NCBI GenBank assembly: GCA_964420995.1
Contig: CAYQUX010000019.1
Coordinates: 16,323 to 80,322, forward strand
DNA from: an uncultured Leptolinea sp.
GTDB lineage: Bacteria > Chloroflexota > Anaerolineae > Anaerolineales > Anaerolineaceae
DNA length: 64,000 nucleotides
Reading direction: 5' to 3'
Position numbers and translations under genes: made by a program. The notes beneath the pieces were generated by a model. That model made no database searches and had not been told where the DNA came from. It saw only the letters and a program-made list of their open reading frames with translations. Positions 1 to 44,860 of this stretch are shown piece after piece (the stretch's first letter is position 1; each line of letters starts with the position of its first letter).

Positions 1-5
1 ACGAT

Positions 6-23
6 AACGTTATCGATAACGTT
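6..23. promoter_or_regulatory. 18-bp perfect palindrome AACGTTATCGATAACGTT about 95 bp upstream of araA; candidate operator
   Basis: Sequence read directly: AACGTTATC/GATAACGTT is self-complementary. The 10-mer cgataacgtt also occurs twice in direct orientation (2-11 and 14-23). It lies upstream of the araA start at 118, which has an AAGGA RBS. Confidence 0.4.
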
Positions 24-117
24 TTTGGAATGCTCTTTTCCATACTTCCTTATTAAGTTCTAATTTTAAAAATTGTATTGCTGGTCAATTCCTTGCGCCC
101 GTTCGAAAGGATTTCTG

Positions 118-1623
118 ATGAATTCATTGAAAAATTACGAGATTTGGTTTGTAACAGGCAGTCAGCATTTATATGGGCCGAAAACTCTCGAACAGGTTGC
201 AGATGATTCCCACAAAATTGCGGAACACTTAAATTCAAGCAGCAGTATCCCGGTGAAGGTGGTTTTCAAACCTGTTGTCAAAACGCCGTCCGAAATCCTG
301 GCTGTTTGCAAAGAAGCAAACAACAACAGCGCCTGTATCGGTCTGGTTTGTTGGATGCATACCTTTTCACCAGCAAAGATGTGGATTGCCGGACTTTCTT
401 CGTTAACCAAACCCTGGTGCCATCTTCATACCCAGTTTGGACGGGAAATTCCCTGGTCAGAGATCGATATGGATTTCATGAATCTCAACCAGTCGGCGCA
501 CGGCGACCGCGAATTTGGTTTCATTGGAACCCGAATGCGCCTGAACCGCAAAGTGATCGTTGGGCACTGGCAGGATAAAGATGTTGAACTCAAGCTGGGT
601 AGTTGGGCGCGTTCAGCCGCTGCCTGGGCGGATTCACAGGAAATGAAAGTCGCCCGGTTTGGCGATAATATGCGCGAAGTCGCCGTCACGGAAGGTAACA
701 AAGTTGGCGCGCAGATCCAACTGGGTTATTCCGTATATGGTTACGGCGTGGGTGACCTTGTAAAATTTGTCGACTCAATAACAGAAGATGATGTCGATAA
801 ACTGGTAGCTCGATATACCGAAGAATACCAGGTGTCAAAAGAGATTCTGCAAACAAAGATATTTACGTCATTACGCGAAGCGGCGCGGCTTGAATTGGGT
901 ATGCGCGCTTTCCTTGAAGAAGGAAATTTTAAAGCGTTTACGACAACATTCGAAGACCTGAATGGGATGAATCAGCTCCCGGGGCTGGCCTGCCAGCGCT
1001 TGATGAATGACGGATACGGGTTCGGCGCAGAAGGGGACTGGAAGACGGCCGCCCTGGTTCGTTCCATGAAAGTGATGGGGGCAGGGTTGCCGGGTGGCAC
1101 ATCCTTTATGGAAGATTACACCTATCACCTTCCGGAAAAGGGAACGGACTGTGTTCTTGGTGCCCACATGCTGGAAGTATGCCCTTCCATTGCCAGCGAT
1201 AAACCTTCGTTGCAGGTGTTCCCGCTTTCCATTGGCGGTAAATCTGATCCGGCCCGCCTGCTTTTCAGCACAAAAACCGGCCCGGCTTTGAATGCCAGCC
1301 TGATTGATATGGGCAATCGATTCCGACTGATCGTCAACGAAGTCGATGTTGTGCCGATTGAGAAACCCATGCCCAATTTGCCGGTTGCCCAGGCACTCTA
1401 GGTTCCCAAGCCCAATTTAAAAGTTGCTGCGGCTGCCTGGATTTACGCGGGCGGCGCGCATCACACCGGCTTCAGCCATGTGGTTACCACCGAGATGCTG
1501 CAGGACTTTGCCGAAATGGCCGATATTGAGTGCCTGCTGATCAATGAAAGCACAAACTTGAATGAGTTCAAAAAAGAACTGCGCTTCAACCATCTGTATT
1601 ACTCTCTCGCGAGAGGGCTATAA
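118..1623 (+). pseudogene. araA: L-arabinose isomerase (AraA) interrupted by an in-frame TAG at 1399-1401; otherwise intact, about 502 codons
   Basis: The N-terminus [12 protein letters not shown] is an AraA hallmark. Downstream of the TAG the same frame continues with [15 protein letters not shown]...[12 protein letters not shown], which is the AraA C-terminus. The TAG aligns with a conserved Trp (TGG) of E. coli AraA (ARALWKAQP versus AQAL*VPKP). The ORF track stops at 1401. Confidence 0.8.
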
Positions 1624-1695: not shown

Positions 1696-2787
1696 ATGAA
1701 GAACAAATCAATGCTTTTCATCACCGTATTGATGCTGGTTTCTGTGTTGTTCACCAGCGCTGCCAACTTTGCCCCCGCCCCCGCGGCCGTTGACACCAAG
1801 GGCATGTTGGTTGGTATCTCCATGCCCACCAAGTCATCCGAGCGCTGGATCTCTGATGGCGAGAGCATGAAGAAAGTCTTCGAGGAAATGGGTTACAAAG
1901 TCGACCTGCAGTTCGCTGAAGACGACATCCCCAATCAGATAGCCCAGATCGAAAGTATGGTTACCAAGGACGCCAAAGTCCTGATCATCGCCGCCATCGA
2001 CGGCAGCACCCTGTCTGACGTGCTGGCCAAAGCCAAGGAAAAAGGCGTTCTGGTCATGGCTTATGATCGCCTGATCACCAAGACCAAAGATGTCGACTAT
2101 TACTCCACCTTCGATAACTTCGGTGTCGGCGTTATCCAGGGTACCCAGATCATCGAAGGTCTTGGTTTGAAAGATGGCAAAGGCCCCTTCAATATCGAAC
2201 TGTTCGGCGGCTCCCCCGATGACACCAATGCCTTCTACTTCTATGATGGTGCCATGTCCGTACTGCAACCCTACATCGACAGCAAGAAACTGGTTGTTGT
2301 CTCCGGCCAGATGGGCATGGACAAAGTCTCCACCCTTCGCTGGGACGGCGCTGTTGCACAGGCCCGCATGGACAACCTGCTGAGCAAGAGCTATACCGAC
2401 AAACGTGTTGATGCCGTTCTGTCTCCGTACGATGGCCTCTCCCGCGGTATCATCTCCTCCCTCAAGGGTGTTGGATATGGAACCAAAGACCAGCCGTGGC
2501 CCGTGGTCACCGGTCAGGATGCTGAAGTTGCCTCCGTCAAAGCCATGATCGCCGGCGAACAGGCCTACACCGTCTTCAAAGATACCCGCGAACTGGCCAA
2601 ACAGACAGCCAAGATGGTTGATGCCGCTCTCAAGGGCGAAAAAGTAGAAATCAACGACACCAAGACCTACAACAACGAAGTCAAGATCGTTCCTTCCTAC
2701 CTGCTCACCCCCATCAGCATCGACATCAAGAACTACAAAGAAAAATTGGTTGACAGCGGTTACCTCAAAGCCGAAGACCTGAAGTAA
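1696..2787 (+). CDS. Periplasmic sugar-binding protein of a CUT2-type ABC transporter (PBP type I, ChvE/XylF-like), with signal peptide
   Basis: GGAG RBS and an N-terminal hydrophobic signal. Motifs across the protein are typical of the monosaccharide-binding PBP1 fold. It is followed by a double-NBD ATPase and a permease. Confidence 0.8.
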
Positions 2788-2802
2788 GATTTTCCTAATG
2801 AT

Positions 2803-2837
2803 GAGTGGAGGGAGACTCTCCCTCCACTCACTTTTTT
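2803..2837 (+). terminator. Rho-independent terminator after the binding-protein gene
   Basis: GAGTGGAGGGA-gact-TCCCTCCACTC stem-loop followed by a TTTTTT run. Confidence 0.6.
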
Positions 2838-2929
2838 CACGCGTAAATATGTTGTATAGTTGATAAAATGGCTCGACGGTCATTTTTATTTTTACAGAAA
2901 TCTTTACGAAAGATTCAAGGATGGGCTGC

Positions 2930-4471
2930 ATGTCTGATGTCATTTTGGAAATGCGTAATATCACAAAGACATACCCTGGCGTAAAGGCTCTGGATGATGT
3001 GAATTTCAGTGTCGAACGTGGCGAGATCCATGCCCTGGTTGGTGAAAATGGGGCCGGGAAATCAACGTTGATGAAAGTTTTGAGCGGTGTTATTCCTCAT
3101 GGCGAGTATACCGGCAATATTATCTTTGAAGGCAAAGAATGCCGTTTCAGCGATATCAAACATAGCGAAGATGTCGGTATTGTGATCATTCATCAGGAAC
3201 TGGCTCTTATTCCATTCTTATCCATTGCCGAGAATATTTTCCTGGGGAATGAATGTGAAAAAAACGGTGTAATAAACTGGCGTGAATCTTTTTTACGGAC
3301 CAGAGAACTATTAAAGAAAGTCGGGCTTAAGGAAACACCCGAAACACTCATTACAAATATTGGTGTTGGCAAGCAGCAACTGGTTGAAATTGCCAAAGCA
3401 CTCTCCAAAAAAGTTAAATTGCTAATTCTGGATGAGCCAACTGCCAGTCTCAATGAGAATGACAGTGAAGCTCTTCTTGACTTGCTTGTCGAATTGAAAA
3501 AACAGGGGATGACATCCATTTTGATCTCACATAAGATAGGTGAGGTTTCCAAGGTGGCCGATGTGATCACGATTTTGCGTGATGGCGCCACGATCGAGAC
3601 ACTGGATACCAGAAAAGACCAGGTTACGGAAGACCGAATTATTCGCGGCATGGTCGGACGCGATCTGACCCATCGCTTCCCACCGCGCACTCCGAAGATT
3701 GGCGACAAAATCTTTGAAATTACCGATTGGACTGTGTACCACCCCATTCATGATGACCGCAAGGTTGTGGATGGGGTTGATCTGGAGGTCCATAAGGGGG
3801 AAGTTATTGGTTTGTACGGATTGATGGGTTCCGGGCGCACAGAGCTTGCCATGAGCATCTTTGGTAAAGCCTACGGCCGACGCATAACCGGCAAGGCAAA
3901 AAAGAACGGCAAAGAGGTGGATCTTTCCAGCATCACCAAGGCAATCAAAAATGGGATTACGTACGCGACGGAAGACCGAAAAACATACGGCCTGGTTCTG
4001 ATCCAGGATATCAAGAACAACATTACTCTGGCCAACCTTGAAGATGTGTCTGATGGTCTGGTTGTCAACAAACGCCGCGAATTGAAGTCCACCATGGAAT
4101 ACCGGGGAAAGTTGAATATTAAGTGTTCCAGTATTCAACAGAAAACTCTGAACCTCTCCGGTGGGAACCAGCAGAAAGTCGTGTTGAGTAAATGGTTGTT
4201 TGCCAAACCCGAGATCTTATTCCTTGACGAGCCGACTCGCGGTATCGATGTTGGAGCGAAGTATGAGATCTACACCATCATTAACCAACTGGCCAGTGAA
4301 GGCAAAGCCATTATTCTGATCTCGTCCGAATTGCCGGAAATTCTTGGCGTTTGCGACCGGATCTACATTATGAATGAAGGCAAAATAGTTGGTGAAATGA
4401 AAGCCCAAGAGGCGACGCAGGAAAAAATCATGAAGTGCATCATGTCAGAACAAGAGGTGATGGTTAAATGA
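2930..4471 (+). CDS. Sugar ABC transporter ATP-binding protein with two fused NBDs (MglA/AraG/GguA-like)
   Basis: Two Walker A/ABC-signature sets are present (GENGAGKST ... LSGGNQQKV ... ILDEPT, and a second degenerate set). The ORF track starts at 2921, but the AGGA RBS spacing fits the ATG at 2930 better. Confidence 0.85.
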
Positions 4472-5631
4472 ATACCTTAAAGGATATGTTCAAGAATAAT
4501 ATTCGCTCCTACGGCATGTTGATCGCCCTGGTCGTCATTATGGGCTTCTTCCAGGTGTTGACTGAAGGTACACTTTTCAGGCCGGTCAATCTGACCAACC
4601 TTTTGCTGCAAAACAGCTATATCATCATCATGGCCATCGGTATGTTGTTGATCATCATCACTGGCTGGATTGACCTGTCTGTTGGACGGGTGGCCGGTTT
4701 TGTTGGGGCTGTTGCCGCAATCTTGCTGGTTGATTTTGATTTGAACGTATACCTGACCATGTTGATCTGCCTGATCGTTGGCGCAATAATCGGTGCCATG
4801 CAGGGATACTGGGTTGCGTTCCAGAAGATTCCTCCATTTATCGTCACCCTGGCCGGTATGTTAATATTCCGTGGTTTAACCCTGGCACTGTTAAACGGTA
4901 AATCCGTTGGGCCATTCCCGACAGAATTCCAGCAACTGGCTTCCGGTTTTATTCCCGATGTGTTCAACATGGAAGGTTTTCACCTGACCAGTGTGGTGCT
5001 TGGCGCCATCGGTTCCGCCTTCTTGATCTGGTTGGACATCCGCAACCGCAAGAATAACCAGAAATATGAGTTTGAAGTTTCACCAATACCATTCTTCATT
5101 GCCAAGAATGTGGTGATTACTGCCGCCATTATGGGGCTTTGCTGGCTGATGGCATCATACAAAGGCCTGCCCAATGTGATGATGTTGATGCTCGTTTTGA
5201 TTGTCATCTACACATTTGTTACCGATCAGACCGTGCTCGGCCGGCGCATTTACGCCATGGGTGGCAATGAGAAAGCCGCCCGTCTTTCCGGCGTCAACAC
5301 CCCGCGGCTGCTTTTCGCCACCTTCGTGAATATGGGTGTTCTTTCCGCCATTGCCGGTATGGTGTACGCGGCCCGTTTGAATTCGGCCACTCCCAAAGCT
5401 GGTGACGGTATGGAGTTGGACGTGATCGCGGCGTGCTACATCGGCGGCGCTTCAGCCAGCGGTGGTATCGGTACGGTCGTGGGCGCCATCATCGGAGCGT
5501 TCATTATGGGCGTTTTGAACAATGGTATGTCCATTATGGGTGTCAATATTGACTGGCAGCAGGTGATCAAGGGTCTCGTGCTGCTGTTCGCTGTTTTCTT
5601 TGATGTGTACAACAAGAACAAAAGTGGATAA
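4468..5631 (+). CDS. Sugar ABC transporter permease (GguB/AraH-like, CUT2 family)
   Basis: Polytopic membrane protein. Its ATG overlaps the ATPase stop (ATGA, 4468-4471), which suggests translational coupling. Confidence 0.8.
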
Positions 5632-8579: not shown

Positions 8580-11492
8580 TTATGATTTACTAAGTGCCCG
8601 CAATACCCGTTCTTTTGTGTATGGTAATTGCCGCATCCACACACCGGTTGCATTATGAATTGCGCTGGCTAAAGCCGGGGCAACGCCATCAATGGCTATT
8701 TCAGACACAGATTTTGCTCCAAATGGTCCGGTGGGTTCATCTGTCTGGACAAAAATTACGTCAGTGAGAGGCATATCGGAGGCGCGAGGGATTTTATACT
8801 TTGCGAGACTGGCATTTTGGGGTTGTCCATCTTCTGCAAAAAGCATTTCTTCTGAAAGAGCAAACCCAAGAGCCTGAGACATGCCTCCTTCCACCTGCCC
8901 GGATGCCGTAATCGGGTTTATGACCCTGCCACAATCAACAATCATTAACAGACGGTCTATTTTTATCTCACCGGTATCTGTATTCATTTCAATTTCAGCG
9001 AATTGTGCTGCTGTCGGGGGAGGGCTGACAGGGCTGAGATGTGATGCTGTTGCCATGATCTGATGCTGATTTTGCTGATGAAGACTGCTTAATCCAATTT
9101 CCTGAAGCGTAACCTGCCGCCCATCGGTTAATTTAACAGTACGATTTTCAAGGGTCAATGATTCTGTGTTGCTCATCTGGAGCATAAAAGCGGCCTGGTT
9201 CAAAAGTTGTGATTTTATCTCCAACGCGGCCTTAAGTACTGCTCCACCACTGATATACGTGGTGCTGCTGGCATAGGCGCCTTTGTCAAACGGCGTAAAA
9301 TCAGTATCCGACGAATAGACGATTATGTCTTCGAGTGGAACACTTAACACTTCAGCCGCTATCTGAGCCAGGATGGTATCAGAGCCAGTGCCAAGGTCTG
9401 TTGCGCCGACCAGTAAATTAAATGAGCCATCATCATTCATCTTTAATGTGGCTGCCGCCATGTCGAGGTTGGCGATTCCGCTGCCGTGCATAACTATGGC
9501 CATTCCCATTCCATGCCGGATGGGGCCAGATTGTTTTTCGTAAGCTTTTCTTTTCTCGTGGAAATTTGTCGCTTTCAAGCCAATCTCAACACAGGATAAA
9601 AAGCCGCTGGATTTCATCGCCTGTTTGACACCTGCGCGGCCTTCCCCTAATTTTTCGGACAGGTGCATATCTTCCCCAATTTCCAACCAATTTTTCTTCT
9701 TGAATTGCACCACATCCAGACCTAACTTTTCAGAGATTTCCTCCATGAGAACTTCTATCCCAAACTGACATTGCATGGCTCCATAACCCCGGAATGCGCC
9801 TGCTGGAGGGGTGTTGGTATAAACCACATCACAGACAAAACGTGAATTTGGGGGATTGTAAAGAGTAAGGCCTTTAAAACCGCCAACCATATTTACAGTA
9901 AGGCCATGCGTGCCATACGCGCCGGTATCTCCGATTAGATATAGTGATGCCGTAGTTACCTGATTACCTTTCACCCCTACTTTATACCGAATAATATTCG
10001 CGTGACGTGAACGTGAACTGAGGAATTCCTGACGGCGGGAATATTGCATGCGCACCGGCCGTTTTGTTTTTACTGAAAGCAATGAGCATAAATCTTCAAG
10101 CAAAATTTCCTGTTTATTTCCAAATCCCCCACCAATCCGCGGCTTGATCACTCTGATTTTCTTTACTGGCAAACCTACCAACGGGGCAATGATCCGTCGA
10201 ACATGAAATGGCACCTGTGTGCTGGTTCGTACGACCAGCCGGTCATCCTCATCCAGATATGTTATGCAAACATGGGGTTCCAAATGTACATGTTGTTGTT
10301 TGGGAGTACGATACTCGCCTTCAAATACATGGTCGGCCTCTTTAAACCCATTCTCAACATCACCCACTTCGGCTTCGATATGGTGAACTATATTATGTTC
10401 AGCATCGTAGATCCCTTCCGTATCCTTCTCGCTATGAACTTGTGGTGCCCCATCTTTCATCGCCTCTTCCGGGTCTACTACTGCAGGCAAAATCTCGTAT
10501 TCCACTTCAATTAGATTCAGCGCTTCGCGCGCAATTTCACTTGACTCCGCCGCCACAACGGCGACACGATCTCCAACATGGCGCACAGTATCATCCAGAA
10601 TAACCTGGTCATAAGGTTTGGGTTGTGGGTAACTTTGTCCGCCTGTGGCGTATTTGATGCGCGGGATATCGTTATGGGTTAGAACGGCGACGACACCGGG
10701 GAGCGCCTTTGCTCTGGTGGTGTCGATTCGAAGAATTCGCGCATGAGCGTGCGGACTGGTCAATAATTCCGCAAACAACATGCCTGGCAGAATAAAATCA
10801 TCTGTAAACACAGGCCGGCCCATGGCCAATTTTTTGGCGTCCACCTTTATTTCCGGGTGGCCGACCACACTGGTTTTGCTCATCTTTTCAGGTGTAAAAA
10901 CCAGCGGCGGCAACGGGTCCCTGTTGCCATCTTTACGAAAATATTCTTCCGGGATAATTACGTCTTCCATCTTTTCAGGAAGAACAACCGCAATATGCGA
11001 GAATGGTGGAATTTTTTCACCCCGAAGGTATGCTGCGGCTCTTTGTACGGCGTTAATACCTCGTACATAACCCGTACAACGACAGAGAACGGGGTCTAAT
11101 GCGTTACGGATTTCATGTTCGGTTGGATGGGTATTTTTATCCAGTAATGCCTTTGAGGATAATATGAAAGCCGGGGTGCAATACCCGCATTGAATGGCTC
11201 CAGTTTCCACGAATGCCTGTTGGATTGGGTCCAATTCACCCTTCTCTCCCAGTCCTTCTACTGTAATTATGCTGGTATTTGCCGCATCTTTTGCTTTTAT
11301 TTTGCAGCTTTTTACCGGTTTACCATTTATTAAAACGGTACAGGCTCCACATTCTCCATTTCCGCAGCCGAATTTTACGCTGAAGTATGATGCGGCACGT
11401 AGAGCATTAAGGAGTGTCTCTTCCGGATCTATTAAGAGGGTTTCTTTTTTATTATTAATTGTCAAATCAATTTCGATTTTTTGGGTGATCAT
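8580..11492 (-). CDS. Molybdopterin-dependent aldehyde oxidoreductase of the xanthine dehydrogenase family (MOP-like: 2Fe-2S domains fused to the MoCo-binding subunit, no FAD domain)
   Basis: The N-terminal plant-type and 4-helix 2Fe-2S motifs are present (GCGNGECGACTV; CGYCTP...CRCTGY), followed by a 750-aa MoCo large-subunit region. The layout matches Desulfovibrio MOP. Confidence 0.8.
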   Translation of the reverse strand: MITQKIEIDLTINNKKETLLIDPEETLLNALRAASYFSVKFGCGNGECGACTVLINGKPVKSCKIKAKDAANTSIITVEGLGEKGELDPIQQAFVETGAIQCGYCTPAFILSSKALLDKNTHPTEHEIRNALDPVLCRCTGYVRGINAVQRAAAYLRGEKIPPFSHIAVVLPEKMEDVIIPEEYFRKDGNRDPLPPLVFTPEKMSKTSVVGHPEIKVDAKKLAMGRPVFTDDFILPGMLFAELLTSPHAHARILRIDTTRAKALPGVVAVLTHNDIPRIKYATGGQSYPQPKPYDQVILDDTVRHVGDRVAVVAAESSEIAREALNLIEVEYEILPAVVDPEEAMKDGAPQVHSEKDTEGIYDAEHNIVHHIEAEVGDVENGFKEADHVFEGEYRTPKQQHVHLEPHVCITYLDEDDRLVVRTSTQVPFHVRRIIAPLVGLPVKKIRVIKPRIGGGFGNKQEILLEDLCSLLSVKTKRPVRMQYSRRQEFLSSRSRHANIIRYKVGVKGNQVTTASLYLIGDTGAYGTHGLTVNMVGGFKGLTLYNPPNSRFVCDVVYTNTPPAGAFRGYGAMQCQFGIEVLMEEISEKLGLDVVQFKKKNWLEIGEDMHLSEKLGEGRAGVKQAMKSSGFLSCVEIGLKATNFHEKRKAYEKQSGPIRHGMGMAIVMHGSGIANLDMAAATLKMNDDGSFNLLVGATDLGTGSDTILAQIAAEVLSVPLEDIIVYSSDTDFTPFDKGAYASSTTYISGGAVLKAALEIKSQLLNQAAFMLQMSNTESLTLENRTVKLTDGRQVTLQEIGLSSLHQQNQHQIMATASHLSPVSPPPTAAQFAEIEMNTDTGEIKIDRLLMIVDCGRVINPITASGQVEGGMSQALGFALSEEMLFAEDGQPQNASLAKYKIPRASDMPLTDVIFVQTDEPTGPFGAKSVSEIAIDGVAPALASAIHNATGVWMRQLPYTKERVLRALSKS

Positions 11493-32824: not shown

Positions 32825-35098
32825 ATGGTCTTGAATATCTTCGCCAAGAAATGCCCGAAATGCGGTAAACCGGTAAAGAATGACGCCCGTTTTTGCGGTG
32901 AGTGCGGTCAACCCCTGGGGGGCGGAATAGTCAAATGCGCGGTGTGCAACACAGACAACAGCTCGGACGCGGCGTATTGCAAGAGCTGCGGCCGGCCGCT
33001 GGCTGAAAACTCTGTCGCTGAGATCCAGCGGCACCACTGGGCGCGAAAAGAGAACGATTTTGCCATCCGCATGGAATCCAATGACCTGCCTGGCCTGCTG
33101 CGAAAAGGTTTGATCATCGAGCCCGGGTTGAACGCTCTGCTTATTGAACGCGGCATCACCAAGGGGACCATCCCTTCGGGCACCTATATTCTCGAACGGC
33201 CGGAACAGAAACTGTGGGACTGGCTGACCACCGGCATACCGGAACGCGCCACCCTTTTATTGGTTGAAGTGACCCCCACCGAGTTGATCTTCAACCTGGG
33301 CGGGCGTTTCACCAGCGATCCGCTGCCCATCGGCATGAACATACGCATGCAGGTCGAAGTGGCCGAGCCGGGTAAATTCATCATCAACCTGCTCAAAGGC
33401 CGCGAACGGCTGACCAAGGAAGACCTGCGCGAGTACCTGTACCCCGAAGTTGTGGCCGCGGCTGACCAGTGGCTGCGCGGGCATTCCCTGAAGGAATTAG
33501 CCGAAAACCCGGCCGTGAAGAACCAGCTGGATATCGCCCTGGAAGAGACTATGAAAAAGACCTTCCAACAGGTTGGTCTGGTGTTCAAGAATATTCGCGC
33601 CGTTGAACTGAACCTGGAACCCTACGACAAGATCAAGGGTGTGCGCGGCAAAATCGCCCTGCTGAACATGTCTTCCAGCGTTGATCTCGAATACCGCAAG
33701 ATGGAAGCCTCCAGCGAATCCGAAGCCTGGAAGATCGAAGAACAGGTGAAGCTGCAGCGCGCGCAGGAAGAAGCCGATCTGCGCAAGAACTGGGGCGAGA
33801 TCCAGAAATCAAACATTCTCGAAGACCTGGCGGAAGAGACCCGCAAGGTGGAGAAGGAAGAATCGCGCGTTGAACTGTTCCAGCGCATGCGCACCGCGGT
33901 GATGAGCGACAAGATGAATGATGTTCGCTCGGAAGCCGATTTTGAAGAGTTTATGAATGAGGTTGACCAGCGCAAATTGCTGGGCCAGAAAGAACGCGAA
34001 GACCTGATCCGCGCCTGGAAGGACGAAGGCGAAGACCATGACCGCGCGCGCGCCAAAATGATCGCCCGCGCGGATGTGGAGCAGGAATACGAACTGCGCG
34101 CGCTGAAGGCCAAACTCTTGTTCGGTGAAGATGAAACCAGGGCAGACAGCGAAATCGCCATTGCCCGCAAGCGCGCTGATTTCTCCTTTGAAATGACCTT
34201 CCGGAATGCCGAACAGGAACTACAGCTTGCACAAAAACGCACGGAGATCGAACGGGCGCGCCAGCAGGCGGCGGAAGACCAGCGTATCCGCGAGATCGAG
34301 ATACGGCAAAAAGAACGGGCTGGCGAGATCAACGCCGACCAGGCTGAAGCCATGATGGGGCTGGAAGTATTAAAGTCAATGAAAGAAATTCACCGGCTTG
34401 ACGCGGAAGAACGGTTACGCGCGGAACGTGAAGATTTGTTGGAACGCGCGAAGGCCATGCATCTCATCGAAATTGAAAAAATGCAGGTTTCATCCACCAT
34501 TGAAATCGACCGCATCAACGCGCTGGCCGCCCTGGCCCCTGAAGCATTGATCTCCGTCTCCGGGCCGGAACAGGCGCGCCTGTTGGCCGACCTGAAGAAA
34601 ACGGAAGCTCTAAAGGGAATGAGTGAAGACCAGATTCTGGCTATGTCTGCCAAGGATTCCCCCGAACTGGCCAAAGCCTTCCAGGAAAAATTCGCGGCCA
34701 TTGCTGCCGGCAAAGCCAGCGAAGAGGTCAAAGCCATGTATGAGCGGCTGGTGGCGGATAAGGACGCGTACCTGCGGCAATCCCGTGAAGATGCCGAGAG
34801 ACACACGAAGGACGTCAGCGCGGCATGGGAACGGGCTGCCGACCAGTCCACGCATGCCATGGACACCATGGCGGACGTAGCCAAATCCTTCGCGCAGGGT
34901 TCGGGTTCAAGCCAGCCGCCGATCATCATCAACACACCATTCGGCGGTGGCGGGCCGACTGTGGTTTCAGGTCCGGGCAGCCAGCAGGGAACGCGGTCCA
35001 CATCGGAGACTAAAATGTGCCCGCAGTGCGGCCGCTTCGTCCCGGTGGATTCAAAACACTGCGAGCATTGCGGCAAGAAGTTTGACGGAATGGATTAG
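32825..35098 (+). CDS. Flotillin-like SPFH protein flanked by zinc ribbons, with a long E/A/R-rich coiled coil
   Basis: N-terminal double CxxC (CPKCG...CGECG; CAVCN...CKSCG). SPFH-like core (GTIPSGTYILERPEQ...LLLVEVTPTELIF...). A coiled coil of about 350 aa. C-terminal CPQCG...CEHCG. Confidence 0.6.
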   Translation: MVLNIFAKKCPKCGKPVKNDARFCGECGQPLGGGIVKCAVCNTDNSSDAAYCKSCGRPLAENSVAEIQRHHWARKENDFAIRMESNDLPGLLRKGLIIEPGLNALLIERGITKGTIPSGTYILERPEQKLWDWLTTGIPERATLLLVEVTPTELIFNLGGRFTSDPLPIGMNIRMQVEVAEPGKFIINLLKGRERLTKEDLREYLYPEVVAAADQWLRGHSLKELAENPAVKNQLDIALEETMKKTFQQVGLVFKNIRAVELNLEPYDKIKGVRGKIALLNMSSSVDLEYRKMEASSESEAWKIEEQVKLQRAQEEADLRKNWGEIQKSNILEDLAEETRKVEKEESRVELFQRMRTAVMSDKMNDVRSEADFEEFMNEVDQRKLLGQKEREDLIRAWKDEGEDHDRARAKMIARADVEQEYELRALKAKLLFGEDETRADSEIAIARKRADFSFEMTFRNAEQELQLAQKRTEIERARQQAAEDQRIREIEIRQKERAGEINADQAEAMMGLEVLKSMKEIHRLDAEERLRAEREDLLERAKAMHLIEIEKMQVSSTIEIDRINALAALAPEALISVSGPEQARLLADLKKTEALKGMSEDQILAMSAKDSPELAKAFQEKFAAIAAGKASEEVKAMYERLVADKDAYLRQSREDAERHTKDVSAAWERAADQSTHAMDTMADVAKSFAQGSGSSQPPIIINTPFGGGGPTVVSGPGSQQGTRSTSETKMCPQCGRFVPVDSKHCEHCGKKFDGMD

Positions 35099-35701: not shown

Positions 35702-37906
35702 GTGGGGAATTTTAACGAAAACGACATAGTTCTTGATAACTACCGGATTGAGCGGAGTATCGGTCAGGGGGCTTTTGGGGAAGTCTATCTGGCGACGGAT
35801 ACCGGACTGAATGGCAAGCGTGCCATCAAAGTGCTGCTGCGCGATGATATTGGTGTGGGCAGTTCGGATTACAACGATTACCGCAACCGTTTCCGCCTGG
35901 AAGCCCAGTTGATGGAATGGTTCAACAATCCACATATCATCCGGGTGTACAACTTCCTGGAAAAGGACAATGTACTTTATTTGATCATGGAGTATGCCGG
36001 AGGCGGCAGCCTGAAACATCGCATGGATCAGGCAAAGAAGGACAGCAGTGTCCTTTCGATAGACGAATCCGTCAAGATCGCCCTGAATATCGCAGAAGGG
36101 CTGTCAGCCCTGCATGCCAAGGATGTCATCCACCGCGACCTGAAACCTTCCAACATCCTATTTGACGCGGAAGGCAACGCCAAGGTAGCGGATCTGGGTC
36201 TGGCGCAGGTTCCCGGCGGACCCAGCCTGCGCTCGCAATTGAGTATCCCGGTTCCCCACCCGGGCACACCGGCATACATGAGCCCCGAGCACGCCAACAG
36301 CTCCAACTACCTTACCCCGGCTTCTGATATCTACTCCCTCGGGTTGATTCTGTTCGAGATGATTACCGGGCGAAATTTCAAGACATTACGGCCAGGTACA
36401 CGGTTAAGTGGGATTATGCCCTCGGCGCCCGGGTGGCTGGATGGTCTGGTATCCCGCATGCTGTCTGAGAATATAAAAGACCGCCCCTGGGACGGCACGG
36501 AAACAGCCGAATTATTACGCGAAGGGTTGGTGAAGCTGGACAAGGCCCAGGCAGAAAAACAAAAAACAGCGGATACCGTGAATGTTGCTGATGATTCGGA
36601 AATGCGTAAGAAGGCGGAGGAGGCTGAACGAGCCCACCGAAAAGAAGAGATCAGGCAACTGGAAGCACAGTGCAAGGTAGCCATTCAAAACCAGGATTGG
36701 AACGCAGCCAATCGTGTGATCAAAACATTGAAGGGGATGGGGAATGATGGCCAATCTGCGGCAGAACTTTGCCAGGCCGATCTGGATAACAGCAGGAAAA
36801 AGACCAGGTCATCGGATTCCGTCTGGAAAAAATTTAGGTGGTTGGGAATTCTTGCTGTTACACTGATTATATTAACAATTATTATAGTAAATTGGCCAGC
36901 TCAACCGGTAATACCAACGGCGGTGCCAGTGTCAGAGGTTCCGGCTGCCCCTATTGCTACTGTCGAATATCATGAACCTACTCTTGAACCTGTTGCCCCT
37001 GCTGCCGCTGCTCCTGACCCCAAAGAAAGTAAGAAATTCACGTATCAAGACATGACCATGTGTTTCCCACAAATGGGGGCGGAAAGTTCCTGGCGGGAAG
37101 CCAACACGGCATCTTTTAAAGAGACAGCAGCCAAGCTGGGTGTTGGTTTGATCTTTTCGGACGCGCAGCAAAAGCAGGAAAATCAGATAGCTGCCATGCG
37201 AGCCTGCATCGCCCAGGGCGTGAGCGTCATCGCGTTGCCGCCGATAGTCCAGGATGGTTGGGAATCAGTGTTACAGGAAGCCAAAGACGCGGCAATACCT
37301 GTGATCATCATTGACCGCGCTGTATCTGCAGATCCGTCTCTCTTTGCTGCCCATATTGGCTCTGACATGGTAATTGAGGGGGAAAAGGCTGGCTCTGAGA
37401 TGAACAAACTGCTTCCCAACGGCGGAAAAATTGTTGAATTGAGAGGCACCGATGGCTCAGGTGCTGCTGTTGGTCGCGCAAATGGCTTTAGAAATACTCT
37501 CAATTCAAATATTCAGATGATTGACACACAGACAGCCAATTTCAATCGAACTGAAAGCAAACCTGCCATGGCAGCAATGCTAAAAAAGTATGGGAAATCC
37601 ATAAATGGATTGTTTTCCCATAACGATGATATGACCATGGGTGCCATTGCCGCGCTTAGAGCAGCCGGTTTCAAACCCGGGGATGTTAAGATCGTTTCTG
37701 TTGACGGAAACAAAGAGGCATTTCAGGCTTTGATGGACGGTTGGATTTCGGCAGAAGTGGAATGCAGTCCCATGATAGGACCACAGGCCATGGAAACCGC
37801 TCTGAAGGTTCTCAATGGCGAGCCGGTGGATCAGTATATTTTGACTAATGAAGGTGTTTTTTACCCTGATCAGGCAAGAGGATTGATTTCCACCCGGCAA
37901 TATTAG
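35702..37906 (+). CDS. Ser/Thr kinase – coiled coil – TM – extracellular PBP type I (LacI/ribose-binding-like) sugar-binding sensor domain
   Basis: GTG start (MGNFNEND...). Kinase motifs with DLG. The C-terminal 300 aa are a periplasmic-binding-protein type I fold (VIIIDRAV ... SHNDDMTMGAIAALRAAG ... VSVDGNKEA). Confidence 0.85.
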   Translation: MGNFNENDIVLDNYRIERSIGQGAFGEVYLATDTGLNGKRAIKVLLRDDIGVGSSDYNDYRNRFRLEAQLMEWFNNPHIIRVYNFLEKDNVLYLIMEYAGGGSLKHRMDQAKKDSSVLSIDESVKIALNIAEGLSALHAKDVIHRDLKPSNILFDAEGNAKVADLGLAQVPGGPSLRSQLSIPVPHPGTPAYMSPEHANSSNYLTPASDIYSLGLILFEMITGRNFKTLRPGTRLSGIMPSAPGWLDGLVSRMLSENIKDRPWDGTETAELLREGLVKLDKAQAEKQKTADTVNVADDSEMRKKAEEAERAHRKEEIRQLEAQCKVAIQNQDWNAANRVIKTLKGMGNDGQSAAELCQADLDNSRKKTRSSDSVWKKFRWLGILAVTLIILTIIIVNWPAQPVIPTAVPVSEVPAAPIATVEYHEPTLEPVAPAAAAPDPKESKKFTYQDMTMCFPQMGAESSWREANTASFKETAAKLGVGLIFSDAQQKQENQIAAMRACIAQGVSVIALPPIVQDGWESVLQEAKDAAIPVIIIDRAVSADPSLFAAHIGSDMVIEGEKAGSEMNKLLPNGGKIVELRGTDGSGAAVGRANGFRNTLNSNIQMIDTQTANFNRTESKPAMAAMLKKYGKSINGLFSHNDDMTMGAIAALRAAGFKPGDVKIVSVDGNKEAFQALMDGWISAEVECSPMIGPQAMETALKVLNGEPVDQYILTNEGVFYPDQARGLISTRQY

Positions 37907-38030: not shown

Positions 38031-40313
38031 ATGGGAAAGTTCAATGAAAAAGACATCATACTGGAAAATTGCCGGATCGAAAAAAGCATTGGGCAGGGCT
38101 CCTTTGGGGAAGTGTACCTGGCCACGAACACTGGAGTAAACAGCAAACGGGCTATCAAAGTGCTGCTGCATGATGAAATCGGTCTGGGCAGTACGGATTA
38201 TTTGCGCTACCAAAAACGCTTCCGTCAGGAATCTCAGTTGATGGCTTGGTTTAGCAATCCCCATCTGATCCGAGTGTACGACTTCCGGGAAGTGGATAAT
38301 ACACTTTACCTGGTTATGGAATATGCCGCCGGGGGAAGTCTCAGGCAGAAGATGGACCAGACCAAGGTAAACGGGCGGAATTTTTCTCCCGAAGAAACTG
38401 CCCGAATTGGAATAGATATTGCTGAAGGTTTGGCCGCATTGCACGCCAAAGATGTTATTCACCGTGACCTGAAGCCGTCCAATATTTTGTTTGATTCGGA
38501 TGGGCAGGCCATTGTGGCTGACCTCGGTCTGGCTCAAGTGCCAGGTGGACCAAGTTTGCGGTCAGAGTTGAGCAATCCCCCTCCGCATCCTGGCACACCG
38601 GCCTATATGAGTCCGGAACATTCCAATTCGAACATATATCTGACGCCTCCGTCGGATGTGTACGCGTTGGGGATAATCCTATTTGAAATGTTGACCGGAC
38701 GCAACCCCAAGATGCTACCTCCTGGAACGTCCTTACGGAGTCAACTCCCGACCGCGCCGGAATGGTTGGATGACCTTTTAACGCGTATGCTGGATAAAGA
38801 TCCAGAAAAACGCCCCTGGGACGGTGAAAAAACGGCTGTTGAATTGCGTAAGGGTTTGGCTGAAGAGATTGAAAAAAAGAAAAAACATGATGATGAGAAG
38901 AAAATTGACGGTCCCAACCAGGAAGATCGCCTGGAAAAGGAAATCCTTCTCTATGTAGAACAGGGCATGACCGCCATAAGATTGAAAGACTGGTCGGCTG
39001 CCCGACGGGTTATCGATGTATTGAGGGGATTGGGGGATAAAGGTGTAAACGCATCAAACCGAATAGAAGCGTTGATACAACCACCTAAACCACCACTACC
39101 ATGGAAAAAATACATGTGGGTTATGATTGCGGGGTTGGCAATGATCGCATTAATATTTGCAATCCAAAACCTTCCCTGGCCACACTCGAATCAAGCCACT
39201 CCAACTGTATCAACGGTAGAACCTACAATATCTCAACTCTCTACAGCCCCCATTATCAAACCGTCAGCAACGTCCAACAAGCCTGTCATAGCTCCATCTG
39301 GTCAGAAGATCAAAATCGGACTGTCATTTTCTGATTTCGCGACCGAACGCTGGACGAATGAGAACGCCCTGCTTCATACACTGCTCGAAGCCAAAGGGTA
39401 CGAAGTGATCACAACCGATGCCAAAGGTAATGCCAGTGTTCAAAATAGCCAGATTAATAATCTGGTTGCCAAAGGAGCAAAAGGCCTGATCATTTTGGCG
39501 CAGGATGGAGACGCCATTGTTCCAGCTGTGGAAAAAGCAGCCAATGCTGGTGTTACAGTAGTAGCTTATGACCGTTTGATCAAAACCTCAAAAATTGGCG
39601 CCTATGTTTCATTTAATAATGTTGAAGTTGGGAATCAACAGGCTGCAGGTATATTGAAAGCGCTGGATATTGACGGGGGTAAATGGACGAAACAAAACCC
39701 GGCAAAAATAGCCTTACTGGCGGGTAGTCCTGTCGATAATAACGCCGTTCTTTTCCGGAAAGGTCAGACGGATATTCTACAGAAATATATCGATTCCGGT
39801 CTTGTGAAAATTGTTGGCGACAAATGGGTTGAAAACTGGGACCCGGCCGATGCAACAAAACAGATGGAAAGCATAATCGCCAATCAGGGGAAAAAGATTG
39901 ATGGCGTGGTGGCTTCCAACGATGGTACCGGACTGGCAGCCCTTGAGGTCTTGAAATCCCATGGATTACGGGTACCTGTCTCCGGACAGGATGCCACGGC
40001 GGACGGGTGTAATTCTATCGTTAAGGGTGAATTGACAATCACGGTCTTTAAAGATTTCCGAAAATTGGCGCCTAATGCTGTCGAAGTTATGGACACATTG
40101 TTACAGGGAAAAGAACTGACTGCTCTAAAAGACTATTCCTTATCTGAATTGACATCAGGCAAAGTTACAACAGGCACTGTGAAATGCCTGTTTATTCCAG
40201 TTGTACCAGTAACAAAAGATAATATCTACGAAGTAATCGTTAAAAGCGGATTCCAATCATATGTAGATGTTTATCGTGATATTCCGAGCGGTCAGGCGCC
40301 CCCTGTGCCGTAG
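38031..40313 (+). CDS. Ser/Thr kinase – TM – extracellular ChvE/XylF-like PBP1 sugar-binding domain (paralog of the ABC binding protein at 1696..2787)
   Basis: Kinase motifs. The C-terminal domain aligns with the ABC binding protein over its full length (IGLSFSDFATERW / [12 protein letters not shown]; VSGQDATADGCNSIVKGELTITVFKD / [26 protein letters not shown]). Confidence 0.85.
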   Translation: MGKFNEKDIILENCRIEKSIGQGSFGEVYLATNTGVNSKRAIKVLLHDEIGLGSTDYLRYQKRFRQESQLMAWFSNPHLIRVYDFREVDNTLYLVMEYAAGGSLRQKMDQTKVNGRNFSPEETARIGIDIAEGLAALHAKDVIHRDLKPSNILFDSDGQAIVADLGLAQVPGGPSLRSELSNPPPHPGTPAYMSPEHSNSNIYLTPPSDVYALGIILFEMLTGRNPKMLPPGTSLRSQLPTAPEWLDDLLTRMLDKDPEKRPWDGEKTAVELRKGLAEEIEKKKKHDDEKKIDGPNQEDRLEKEILLYVEQGMTAIRLKDWSAARRVIDVLRGLGDKGVNASNRIEALIQPPKPPLPWKKYMWVMIAGLAMIALIFAIQNLPWPHSNQATPTVSTVEPTISQLSTAPIIKPSATSNKPVIAPSGQKIKIGLSFSDFATERWTNENALLHTLLEAKGYEVITTDAKGNASVQNSQINNLVAKGAKGLIILAQDGDAIVPAVEKAANAGVTVVAYDRLIKTSKIGAYVSFNNVEVGNQQAAGILKALDIDGGKWTKQNPAKIALLAGSPVDNNAVLFRKGQTDILQKYIDSGLVKIVGDKWVENWDPADATKQMESIIANQGKKIDGVVASNDGTGLAALEVLKSHGLRVPVSGQDATADGCNSIVKGELTITVFKDFRKLAPNAVEVMDTLLQGKELTALKDYSLSELTSGKVTTGTVKCLFIPVVPVTKDNIYEVIVKSGFQSYVDVYRDIPSGQAPPVP

Positions 40314-40398: not shown

Positions 40399-42177
40399 AT
40401 GAGAAACAAGGACAACATTATGGAGACAAAATCATTTGGCAAGTACGAATTACTGGAGAAACTCGGCACCGGCGCGACCGGGGAGGTCTACCACGCGCGG
40501 GATACCCAGCTCGGCCGGGATGTTGCCCTGAAATTTTTCAAACCTGCACTGGTTTCCGACCCGGATTCCTTCCAACGCTTCATGCTCGAGGCGCGGTCAT
40601 CCGCCAGCCTTTTTCATAGCAATATCGCCACCGTGTTTGATATGGGGGAAGTGGAAGGGCGTTACTTCCTTGCCATGCAATATATTGACGGCAGATCGCT
40701 GGACGACATCCTCAAATCAGATGGACCTCTCACAGTGGATGAGACAGTCCGAATGGCAAAGCAGATTGCATCCGCGTTGGACTATGCCCACCAGCAGGGT
40801 TTTCTGCACCGGGATGTTAAACCGGGGAACATCCTGCAGGATAAAAAAGGGGATTTCTTCCTCACGGACTTTGGCCTGGCCAAAGCCATGATGTCGACCG
40901 GCCTGACAAGTCACACGGGCGCCGTACTCGGCACACCACCGTATATCCCCCCCGAGATCTGGCTGGGTGAAGCGGCTTCTCCGGCGTCTGACCAGTACGC
41001 GCTGGCCTGTGTAGTTTATGAATGCCTGTCTGGAAAGCTGCTCTTTCCGGGTGAAAACACGCCGGCCATTATGACCCGGCATGTGCTCAAGGGCCCAGAA
41101 GGATTGGAATCGTTGCCCGCGACCATTCCAGCGCATATACAAAAGGGTCTGGAACGGGCGCTTTCACGGAATTCGGATAAACGCTTCGTTTCAGCAACCG
41201 AATTTGCCTCCGCGCTTGATAAACATGTGGAAAAACCGCAGCCTGAAAAGCCAAAAAAGTCGGTTCTTCCATGGCTTGTTCCCGTTGGGTTGATCACTTT
41301 GGCGGTTCTGGGATATTCAATTTTTCGGTTATTGCCCGGGGAGGAACACCCGCCAATCAATCCATCACAAAAACCGACCGAAATGGCCATCAGTCCACAG
41401 ACCCAGATTCCTCAAGTAGAAAATACGATTTTTCCCACAAAAAATTCGCCCCTGAGTTCTCCCAGGATTAACAACACAAGGAAACGCGTTAATGATGGCA
41501 TGATGATGGTGTATGTCCCTGCCGGGGAATTCACCATGGGTAGTTATGCTGGAGATGAAGATGAGAAGCCTGAACATAAAGTCACACTGCCAGCCTACTG
41601 GATTGATCAAACCGAAGTAACCAATAAAATGTTTTTTATTTGCGTAAGCAATGGGAGGTGCCAGCCTCCCGTAAATATTCGTTCAAATACCCGTGATGGT
41701 TATTATAGCTATAACGCTTATGATAATTACCCAGTAATCAATATAAATTGGGAGCAGGCAAGAGTTTATTGCGACTGGGCGGGAGGGAGGTTGCCTGATG
41801 AATCGGAATGGGAAAAAGCAGCCAGAGGTGTGGACAGCCGGATTTACCCCTGGGGGAACCAGGATGCAGATATATCTCTGGCGAACTTCGTTATATCAGA
41901 TTTAGGTGATACATCTGTTGTTGGAAGCTATAACAGTGGTCAAAGTCCCTATGGTGTTTATGATATGGCCGGTAATGTTTGGGAATGGGTTTCCAGTTCT
42001 TATCTTCCTTACCCCGGGATTAATTATGTTGCTTTTCCATTTGATTCCAGGAAAAAAATCATCAGGGGTGGTTCATGGAATGATTATGATCATTATATTC
42101 GTACGACACATCGAAATGGAAAAGATCCGTCTGATTTTGGTCTAGACATAGGATTCAGATGTATGGTCCCCGAATAA
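40399..42177 (+). CDS. Ser/Thr kinase – TM – extracellular FGE-sulfatase (SUMF1/formylglycine-generating enzyme-like) domain
   Basis: Kinase motifs (HRDVKPGNIL, DFG). C-terminal FGE-sulfatase motifs (GEFTMGS..., RVYCDWAGGRLPDESEWEKAARG, GNVWEWVSS, RGGSW). Confidence 0.85.
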   Translation: MRNKDNIMETKSFGKYELLEKLGTGATGEVYHARDTQLGRDVALKFFKPALVSDPDSFQRFMLEARSSASLFHSNIATVFDMGEVEGRYFLAMQYIDGRSLDDILKSDGPLTVDETVRMAKQIASALDYAHQQGFLHRDVKPGNILQDKKGDFFLTDFGLAKAMMSTGLTSHTGAVLGTPPYIPPEIWLGEAASPASDQYALACVVYECLSGKLLFPGENTPAIMTRHVLKGPEGLESLPATIPAHIQKGLERALSRNSDKRFVSATEFASALDKHVEKPQPEKPKKSVLPWLVPVGLITLAVLGYSIFRLLPGEEHPPINPSQKPTEMAISPQTQIPQVENTIFPTKNSPLSSPRINNTRKRVNDGMMMVYVPAGEFTMGSYAGDEDEKPEHKVTLPAYWIDQTEVTNKMFFICVSNGRCQPPVNIRSNTRDGYYSYNAYDNYPVININWEQARVYCDWAGGRLPDESEWEKAARGVDSRIYPWGNQDADISLANFVISDLGDTSVVGSYNSGQSPYGVYDMAGNVWEWVSSSYLPYPGINYVAFPFDSRKKIIRGGSWNDYDHYIRTTHRNGKDPSDFGLDIGFRCMVPE

Positions 42178-43983: not shown

Positions 43984-44860
43984 GTGGGGCGATTTGCTGA
44001 AAACGACATCATTCTAAAGAATTACCGTATCGAGAAAAGCATCGGTCAGGGTGCTTTTGGCGAAGTTTACCTGGCGACGCACCTCGGGTTGAACGGCAAG
44101 CGCGCCGTCAAGGTGCTGCTGCGCGACGAGATCGGCATGGGCAGTTCGGACTACGACGAATACCGCAACCGCTTCCGCCAGGAATCGCAGTTGATGGAGT
44201 GGTTCAAGCACCCCAATGTTGTCACCGTCTACGATTTTCAGGAGGAAGATGGCGTTCTCTTCCTGGTGATGGAATACGCGACGGGCGGCAACCTGCAGAA
44301 AAAGTTGGAAATCGCGCGGCGTGAGAATGAGCGCTTTACGGTTGATGAAGTCGTGCGCGTGGGTATAGACATTGCGGAGGGGTTATCCGCGTTGCATGCC
44401 AAGGATGTGGTCCACCGCGACCTGAAGCCGTCGAACATATTGTTTGACGTGGACGGGCGCGCCAAGGTGGCTGACCTGGGACTGGCACAGGTGCCGGGCG
44501 GGGCGAGCATGCGCTCGCAGTTGAGCATTCCCAAGCCACACCCGGGCACGCCTGCCTACATGAGCCCCGAGCAGGAGATCGCCGGTTCTTACCTGCGGCC
44601 GGCATCGGATGTGTATGCGCTTGGATTGATCCTGTTTGAAATGCTGGCCGGACGGAGCTACAAGAATATCCGGCCGGGAACCCTGATAAAGTCACTGGCT
44701 CCGGGTGTGCCGGACTGGTTTGATGAGCTATTGCGTAGGATGCTGGCGGAGTCGCCTAAAGACAGGCCATGGGACGGCGCAGAGGCAGTCAATGAACTGC
44801 GTACCGGGCTGGCTGCCGGCGATGAAAAGATGCGGGAAGCCCGCGAGAAAGCGCGTTTGG
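43984..44860 (+). repeat. Copy 1 of an ~880-bp near-identical direct repeat (the kinase-domain coding region). Copies 2 and 3 are at 47034..47910 and 50889..51760.
   Basis: Long runs of identical nucleotides are visible by eye (e.g. 44171-44340 versus 47221-47390). The third copy is more diverged. Confidence 0.7.

What the first reader, a model, noticed from the sequence alone, without database searches (positions are those of the whole stretch)
1399..1401. In-frame amber codon (TGG to TAG at a conserved Trp) splits an otherwise intact araA
Read-through translation in the same frame restores the complete AraA C-terminus, about 74 more residues including the conserved [10 protein letters not shown] block. 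The TAG aligns with a Trp of E. coli AraA. The cause could be a sequencing error, a very recent nonsense mutation that inactivated arabinose catabolism, or a suppressed stop. Both the downstream gene context (the arabinose ABC transporter) and the upstream RBS are intact.
Basis: seen in the sequence. Interest (0 to 1): 0.6.

Follow-up and report, generated by a model that had tools for sequence, protein, structure and literature searches.

The report
Recent amber nonsense mutation in araA
A single G-to-A change has turned an invariant tryptophan codon of the arabinose isomerase gene into a stop codon in an uncultured Leptolinea-like bacterium. The intact version of the same gene is found in sister sequencing runs, so this is an ordinary, very young loss-of-function variant and not a sequencing error or a recoded stop.

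Summary
araA (118..1623, +) has an in-frame TAG at 1399-1401 (codon 428). Reading through it restores a complete AraA that scores 826 bits against the NCBIfam equivalog (cutoff 622). The TAG sits where 120 of 120 homologues, E. coli AraA (W429) and Geobacillus AraA all have Trp.

Public per-run assemblies settle the cause. Contigs with the TAG, 100% identical to the window, occur in at least six runs (ERR4515096/97, ERR4519282, ERR4529291, ERR4539293, ERR4549758). Three neighbouring runs (ERR4519283/84/86) carry contigs that are identical over up to 11.9 kb except for G at window 1400 (TGG). So this is a real G->A nonsense SNP, W428*, present alongside the intact allele. It is extremely recent: the two alleles show no other difference, and the 73 downstream codons show the same purifying-selection signature as the upstream part.

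The truncated product lacks His449 (E. coli His450, a metal ligand) and about a third of the C-terminal domain, so it should be inactive. TAG ends five other genes in the window at their expected C-termini. No other gene is split, and I found no tRNA and no recoding signal. This is an ordinary pseudogenising polymorphism of low interest.

The parts
1..21 (.). 3' part of an operator-like palindrome (CGGTAACGATAAC/GTTATCGATAACG). It extends 5 nt upstream of the window. A LacI-family regulator gene lies divergently upstream, outside the window.
   Evidence: inverted repeat L001 9879-9904 = window -5..21; LacI-family regulator at L001 8388-9422. The operator function is inferred.
106..111 (+). Shine-Dalgarno-like AAAGGA, 6 nt before the araA start codon
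   Evidence: sequence read directly
118..1398 (+). araA codons 1-427, the part translated from the TAG allele. Contains AraA_N, AraA_central and the first ~100 positions of Arabinose_Iso_C. Includes Glu305, Glu332 and His350 (E. coli Glu306, Glu333, His350).
1399..1401 (+). Amber codon TAG = W428*. The polymorphic base is 1400: A in the window, G in the intact allele.
1402..1623 (+). araA codons 429-501 plus TAA. Untranslated in the TAG allele and still undecayed. Contains the AGGAHHT motif.
1462..1464 (+). Codon for His449, aligned with E. coli AraA His450. It lies after the stop and before the first possible in-frame restart codon (GTG 1480).
   Evidence: The role of His450 as an active-site metal ligand comes from my knowledge of the E. 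coli AraA structure literature. The general point of 'two acidic residues and two histidines' is in PMC12842569.
1696..2787 (+). ChvE-type multiple-monosaccharide ABC transporter substrate-binding protein, intact
   Evidence: NF040907, 541 bits, cutoff 460
2802..2830 (+). 13-bp hairpin followed by a T-run, between the binding-protein and ATPase genes (terminator- or attenuator-like)
   Evidence: consensus scan only
2921..4471 (+). GguA-type ABC transporter ATPase, intact. Relatives start 3 codons later.
   Evidence: NF040905, 863 bits, cutoff 810
4468..5631 (+). GguB-type ABC transporter permease, intact
   Evidence: NF040906, 581 bits, cutoff 450

Best explanation
A real and very recent G->A transition at window position 1400 changed the invariant Trp428 codon (TGG) of araA to an amber stop. 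The mutant allele and the intact allele coexist in the same, otherwise near-clonal, population of an uncultured Leptolinea-like Anaerolineae bacterium. The window carries the mutant allele. Shown: the SNP is real, TAG is the derived state, and nothing else differs between the alleles. Inferred: translation ends at codon 427. The product lacks the last 74 residues, which hold about a third of the C-terminal domain and His449, the counterpart of the fourth active-site metal ligand of E. coli AraA. Cells with this allele therefore lack L-arabinose isomerase activity, apart from whatever trace arises from ordinary leaky termination. Whether the loss is neutral, hitch-hiking or selected cannot be told from these data.
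For: (1) TAG is in frame and the read-through product is a complete AraA (NCBIfam equivalog 826 bits, cutoff 622). (2) The position is Trp in 120 of 120 homologues, in E. coli (W429) and in Geobacillus, so TAG is derived. (3) The exact 427-aa product is on 8 Logan contigs. Contigs from ERR4519282, ERR4529291, ERR4539293, ERR4549758, ERR4515096 and ERR4515097 contain the A and match the window 100%. (4) The exact 501-aa Trp version is also in the collection, on contigs from ERR4519283, ERR4519284 and ERR4519286. These differ from the window and from L001 by one base only, G at 1400, over 1.7, 5.7 and 11.9 kb. (5) The G allele is not an assembly mix-up with the nearest relative found. The closest other lineage recovered is only about 85% identical in DNA and differs at 1395, 1396, 1398, 1404, 1407 and 1410, so it could not form a simple SNP bubble. 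(6) There is no decay downstream. Against the sister lineage, codons 429-501 show 24 synonymous-only and 5 amino-acid-changing differences, against 145 and 30 for codons 1-427. Amino-acid identity to the closest homologue is 93.2% downstream and 92.7% upstream. (7) His449 (E. coli His450) lies between the stop and the first possible in-frame restart codon at 1480. (8) TAG works as a terminator here. Five other genes end in TAG just after their last Pfam domain, and no other gene in about 45 is split.
Against: The provenance and independence of the ERR45xxxxx runs are unknown, and paper searches found nothing. They could be replicates or time points of one reactor or enrichment, and the window's assembly may come from the same reads. 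No read-level allele frequencies are available. Loss of enzyme activity is inferred from homology and was not measured. A suppressor tRNA elsewhere in the genome cannot be excluded, because only about 74 kb of this genome was available.
Confidence: 0.86

Rival explanations
1. Sequencing or assembly artefact: the true sequence is TGG everywhere and the A at 1400 is an error carried into the consensus.
For: A single-base difference is the smallest possible discrepancy. The runs may share a library or a platform bias. One contig that the look-up listed as carrying the 427-aa product (ERR4534291, L003/L101) actually ends at 1399 and does not contain the A.
Against: The A is in the consensus of at least six separately assembled runs, while three other runs of the same accession series give G, with every other base identical. 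A random error would not reach consensus repeatedly. A systematic error would be expected in all runs.
Confidence: 0.03
2. The amber codon is decoded, by a suppressor tRNA, pyrrolysine or TAG reassignment, or by efficient programmed read-through, so a functional full-length AraA is still made.
For: The downstream 73 codons are fully intact. The mutant allele is the commoner one among the contigs found. Only about 74 kb of the genome could be searched for tRNAs.
Against: An otherwise identical TGG allele exists, so the TAG is a new mutation and not a conserved recoding site. All 120 homologues have Trp. TAG ends five other genes at their expected C-termini, and read-through would add 0-49 residues to them. 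No other gene is interrupted by TAG. There is no tRNA in the window or in 10 kb upstream. There is no Rfam match in the window, and the RNA downstream of the stop folds no better than shuffles (z = -1.08). Intact downstream codons are expected anyway for a mutation this young.
Confidence: 0.04
3. A refinement of the best explanation, not an alternative to it. The nonsense allele is kept or driven up by selection. Possible reasons are saving the cost of an unused pathway, avoiding toxic sugar-phosphate build-up if later steps are limiting, or leaving arabinose use to neighbouring cells or species.
For: The TAG allele was recovered from more runs than the TGG allele (at least 6 against 3), on a background with no other differences. 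No araB or araD lies next to araA here or in the sister lineage. The transporter handles several monosaccharides, so it stays useful without araA. That E. coli araD mutants are arabinose-sensitive and are rescued by araA, araB or araC mutations is my own recollection and was not checked here.
Against: Run counts are not allele frequencies, and the runs may not be independent. One SNP in a near-clonal population is equally well explained by drift or hitch-hiking. There is no second, independent inactivating mutation in araA or in the transporter genes that would suggest convergence.
Confidence: 0.12

Closest known systems
L-arabinose isomerase AraA (EC 5.3.1.4), e.g. E. coli K-12 b0062 (PDB 2AJT/2HXG) and Geobacillus kaustophilus AraA (PDB 4R1O)
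   Same: The read-through or TGG-allele product is 58% identical to E. coli AraA over its full length. It gives E = 1e-208 to 4r1o. It has all three Pfam domains and passes the NCBIfam equivalog cutoff. Residues aligned with E. coli Glu306, Glu333, His350 and His450 are present.
   Different: In the window's allele, codon 428 is a stop. The encoded product is 427 aa and lacks the His450 equivalent and the C-terminal 74 residues.
Classical amber (nonsense) mutations and young unitary pseudogenes in bacterial catabolic genes
   Same: A single transition turns TGG into TAG. The rest of the gene and the operon are intact. The intact ancestral allele is still present in the population.
   Different: Seen in an uncultured Anaerolineae population from public run assemblies, not in a laboratory strain. 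The phenotype was not measured.
TAG recoding systems (pyrrolysine decoding, amber-suppressor tRNAs, TAG-reassigned genetic codes)
   Same: An in-frame TAG inside a conserved enzyme gene, with an intact reading frame after it.
   Different: TAG is used as an ordinary terminator in neighbouring genes. It is not conserved at this site, and only one gene is affected. No tRNA or recoding element was found in the DNA available.
Agrobacterium-type ChvE-GguAB multiple-monosaccharide ABC transporter (downstream genes)
   Same: All three downstream proteins exceed the NCBIfam equivalog cutoffs for ChvE, GguA and GguB.
   Different: The AraG and AraH models score well below their cutoffs (504 against 689 and 194 against 378).

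Membership tests
L-arabinose isomerase AraA (NCBIfam NF002795 equivalog; Pfam PF02610 + PF24856 + PF11762) | Full-length match to the equivalog model above its curated cutoff | tested here: met
   The Trp-allele / read-through product P0122 scores 826.2 bits against a cutoff of 622, covering model positions 1-498 of 499.
L-arabinose isomerase AraA (NCBIfam NF002795 equivalog; Pfam PF02610 + PF24856 + PF11762) | N-terminal, central and C-terminal AraA domains in order | tested here: met
   PF02610 at 7-174, PF24856 at 177-323, PF11762 at 327-471, all with E < 1e-63.
L-arabinose isomerase AraA (NCBIfam NF002795 equivalog; Pfam PF02610 + PF24856 + PF11762) | Active-site residues corresponding to E. 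coli Glu306, Glu333, His350 and His450 | tested here: met
   Pairwise alignment with E. coli K-12 AraA gives Glu305, Glu332, His350 and His449. This holds only for the read-through or TGG product. The role of these residues comes from the literature (PMC11172353 and PMC12842569; His450 from my own knowledge).
L-arabinose isomerase AraA (NCBIfam NF002795 equivalog; Pfam PF02610 + PF24856 + PF11762) | Uninterrupted reading frame that encodes the full-length enzyme, in the window's own allele | tested here: not met
   TAG at codon 428 (1399-1401). The window's copy is an araA pseudogene allele. The TGG allele in ERR4519283/84/86 meets this feature.
L-arabinose isomerase AraA (NCBIfam NF002795 equivalog; Pfam PF02610 + PF24856 + PF11762) | Isomerase activity on L-arabinose | not testable with these tools
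   Needs an enzyme assay or complementation.
Stop-codon recoding or reassignment of TAG (suppressor tRNA, pyrrolysine, alternative code) | TAG rarely or never ends genes, and in-frame TAGs recur in conserved genes | tested here: not met
   Five other genes end in TAG within 3-65 residues (at most 27 in four of them) after their last Pfam domain. No other split gene was found among about 45 in the window.
Stop-codon recoding or reassignment of TAG (suppressor tRNA, pyrrolysine, alternative code) | The in-frame TAG is conserved at the site among relatives | tested here: not met
   Trp in 120 of 120 homologues. TGG in the same strain background and in the sister lineage.
Stop-codon recoding or reassignment of TAG (suppressor tRNA, pyrrolysine, alternative code) | A tRNA with a CUA anticodon (and pylS/BCD for pyrrolysine) in the genome | tested here: inconclusive
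   No tRNA in the 64-kb window or in the 10 kb upstream. The rest of the genome was not available.
Stop-codon recoding or reassignment of TAG (suppressor tRNA, pyrrolysine, alternative code) | A recoding RNA signal next to the stop | tested here: not met
   No Rfam family reaches its threshold in the window. The 111 nt around and after the stop fold with z = -1.08 against shuffles.
Recent nonsense pseudogene / segregating loss-of-function allele | A premature stop relative to orthologues, with the intact ancestral allele identified in the same lineage | tested here: met
   one base differs over up to 11.9 kb.
Recent nonsense pseudogene / segregating loss-of-function allele | The truncation removes parts needed for function | tested here: met
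   Loss of Pfam PF11762 positions after residue 427 and of His449. The functional consequence is inferred.
   AraG 504.5 bits against cutoff 689. AraH 193.8 against 378. ChvE, GguA and GguB are all above their cutoffs.

The most novel reading that the evidence does not exclude
The amber allele is not just a neutral accident. It may be a selected, possibly leaky, loss or reduction of arabinose isomerase that is kept alongside the intact allele in a natural Anaerolineae population. That would be a snapshot of adaptive gene loss or metabolic division of labour. Less likely, it could be rescued by an unrecognised suppressor tRNA elsewhere in the genome.
Probability: 0.1. Interest if true: 0.35.

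Novelty: already known. Interest (0 to 1): 0.12.

Why it matters
It matters mainly for annotation. This araA copy should be flagged as a nonsense pseudogene allele. Metabolic reconstructions of this MAG should not count arabinose catabolism as present without noting that the population is polymorphic. It also shows that per-run public assemblies can tell a real nonsense SNP from an error without access to reads. It reveals no new mechanism.

Tried and rejected
- **Whole-code reassignment of TAG:** rejected. TAG ends five other well-supported genes and no other gene is split.
- **Cross-species assembly chimera:** I considered that the TGG contigs might arise from bubble-popping with a co-occurring sister species. 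Rejected, because the nearest other lineage recovered differs at six positions within 10 nt of the SNP.
- **Split-enzyme rescue by re-initiation:** rejected. The first in-frame start after the stop is GTG 1480, downstream of the His449 codon at 1462-1464.
- **Source genome:** the 442-aa product from the TTG 73 start is not in the gene-position index, although it is listed as an NCBI protein on a 93,775-bp contig. The genome-contig scan returned only relatives (best 80%, a Leptolinea sp. MAG), not the source.
- **Exact-pattern scan of JGI metagenome contigs across the SNP:** no match.
- **Paper searches for the run accessions:** nothing useful, so sample provenance is unknown.
- **ERR4534291 as evidence:** its contig ends at 1399, which fits a graph branch at 1400. 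I do not count it for either allele, because breaks in conserved segments are common in these assemblies (at 1458-1467 and at 2013).

Full report
**1. The observation**

The + strand of the window has an ORF that starts at ATG 118. It is preceded by AAAGGA at 106-111 and stops at TAG 1399-1401. The same frame then continues for 73 sense codons to TAA 1621-1623 and encodes ...[24 protein letters not shown]...SLARGL.

With the stop masked, the 501-aa product has three Pfam domains: AraA_N, AraA_central and Arabinose_Iso_C. The last of these (residues 327-471) spans the stop. The product aligns end to end with solved L-arabinose isomerases (E = 1e-208 to 4r1o; E = 6e-194 to E. coli 2ajt).

The stop aligns with Trp in every comparison made:
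- Geobacillus AraA
- W429 of E. coli K-12 AraA
- W in 120 of 120 database homologues

**2. Is the TAG real?**

The exact 427-aa truncated product is on record on 8 contigs of Logan per-run assemblies. Six runs have contigs that contain the A at 1400 and match the window 100% over the overlap: ERR4519282, ERR4529291, ERR4539293, ERR4549758, ERR4515096 and ERR4515097. Two of these contigs are reported as present in four samples each.

One contig that the look-up listed (ERR4534291) ends at 1399, one base before the SNP. It is not evidence for either allele.

The full-length protein with Trp at 428, otherwise identical, is also in the collection (P0122). It is encoded on contigs from ERR4519283, ERR4519284 and ERR4519286. 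These contigs differ from the window, and from the TAG contig L001, by a single base: G instead of A at window 1400. This holds over 1.7, 5.7 and 11.9 kb.

The nearest other lineage I could find (P0123/P0001, 93% amino-acid identity) is only about 85% identical in DNA. It differs at 1395, 1396, 1398, 1404, 1407 and 1410. The TGG contigs therefore cannot be an assembly mixture with that relative.

A consensus-level A in several runs, and a consensus-level G in others on an identical background, indicates a true polymorphism and not a sequencing error. One caveat remains. I could not find where the runs come from, so they may be replicates or time points of a single system.

**3. Direction and age of the change**

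Every outgroup has TGG, so TAG is the derived state. The change is a G->A transition.

The two alleles show no other difference. Against the sister lineage, the 73 codons after the stop show 24 synonymous-only and 5 amino-acid-changing differences. Codons 1-427 show 145 and 30, which is the same ratio. Identity to the closest homologue is 93.2% downstream and 92.7% upstream.

The downstream segment has therefore not evolved as non-coding DNA for any detectable time. The mutation is very young.

**4. Consequence (inferred)**

Alignment with E. coli AraA places Glu305, Glu332 and His350 before the stop and His449 after it. These correspond to E. coli Glu306, Glu333, His350 and His450.

The literature describes the AraA active site as two acidic residues plus two histidines around a divalent metal (PMC12842569; Glu306 and Glu333 in PMC11172353). 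The assignment of His450 as the fourth residue is from my own knowledge of the E. coli structure work.

The truncated product also loses about a third of the C-terminal domain. The first in-frame start codon after the stop is GTG 1480, beyond the His449 codon (1462-1464), so a re-initiated fragment could not supply that residue. The TAG allele should therefore be a null, apart from ordinary low-level leakiness.

**5. Is the stop decoded?**

I found nothing to suggest so:
- Five other genes in the window end in TAG: 32825-35098, 35702-37906, 38031-40313, 49900-50706(-) and 62245-62913(-). Each ends 3-65 residues after its last Pfam domain, and read-through would add 0-49 residues.
- About 45 genes were inspected and none is split by TAG or by any other stop.
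- There is no tRNA gene in the window, in the 10 kb upstream, or at the sister locus.
- No Rfam family reaches its threshold in the window.
- The RNA around and after the stop folds no better than shuffled controls (z = -1.08).
- The coexisting TGG allele shows that the TAG is a fresh mutation, not a conserved recoding site.

A suppressor tRNA elsewhere in the genome cannot be excluded, because only about 74 kb of this genome was available.

**6. Context**

Homologues with names come from Leptolinea sp. and other Anaerolineae MAGs. The source is an NCBI contig of 93,775 bp, which I could not retrieve by name.

Upstream, outside the window, lies a divergent LacI-family regulator gene. A palindrome, CGGTAACGATAAC/GTTATCGATAACG, overlaps the window start.

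The three genes downstream of araA exceed the NCBIfam equivalog cutoffs for ChvE, GguA and GguB, the multiple-monosaccharide ABC transporter. They fall well below the cutoffs for AraG and AraH. All three genes are intact.

No terminator-like site lies between araA and the binding-protein gene. A strong hairpin with a T-run follows the binding-protein gene. The sister lineage has the same gene order and an intact araA. No araB or araD is adjacent in either.

**7. Verdict**

This is a real, very recent amber nonsense mutation (W428*) in araA. It coexists with the intact allele in a near-clonal, uncultured Leptolinea-like population, and it most likely abolishes arabinose isomerase in the cells that carry it. 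It is an ordinary kind of event.

Sequencing error and suppression are unlikely. Whether the loss is neutral or selected remains open. The run counts (at least 6 with TAG, 3 with TGG) are not allele frequencies. Interest is low.

Noticed in passing
window 16079-54236: A dense cluster of about ten Ser/Thr protein kinase genes. Six carry C-terminal extracellular-type ligand-binding domains: Peripla_BP_4 at 35702-37906, 38031-40313 and 43984-47016; SBP_bac_1 at 47034-49721; SBP_bac_5 at 50889-54236; FGE-sulfatase at 40399-42177. These kinase-solute-binding-protein fusions look like an expanded sensor family.
   Followed up: no
window 2013/2014 and 1458-1467: Logan contigs from several runs stop at the same places: at 2013 in L002, L004 and L005, and at 1458-1467 in L097-L100. 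Both sites lie in segments that are very conserved among Leptolinea relatives (binding protein ~97% identical to the sister lineage; AGGAHHT motif). The likely cause is assembly-graph branching with co-occurring relatives, not further variants.
   Followed up: partly
window 1399 (contig L003/L101, ERR4534291): A contig ends exactly one base before the SNP, as expected if both A and G occur at 1400 in that run. It was listed as encoding the 427-aa product only because the contig ends there.
   Followed up: partly
window 1-21 (L001 9879-9904): A near-perfect palindrome, CGGTAACGATAAC/GTTATCGATAACG, about 100 nt upstream of araA. It lies between araA and a divergent LacI-family regulator gene and is probably that regulator's operator.
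   Followed up: partly
window 1696-5631: The transporter downstream of araA is ChvE/GguA/GguB-like (multiple monosaccharides) and not AraFGH. A 13-bp hairpin with a T-run (2802-2830) separates the binding-protein gene from the ATPase gene.
   Followed up: yes
window 1471-1473 (araA codon 452): This lineage has His in the GFSHVV motif, where eight of the closest relatives inspected have Gln (GFSQVV). Both the TAG and the TGG alleles carry it, so it predates the nonsense mutation.
   Followed up: partly
window 8580-11492 (-): A 970-aa fusion of a 2Fe-2S domain with a molybdopterin-binding xanthine-dehydrogenase/aldehyde-oxidase-type subunit sits between TetR and PadR regulator genes. It is absent from the otherwise syntenic sister locus L088, where the TetR and PadR genes are adjacent.
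   Followed up: no
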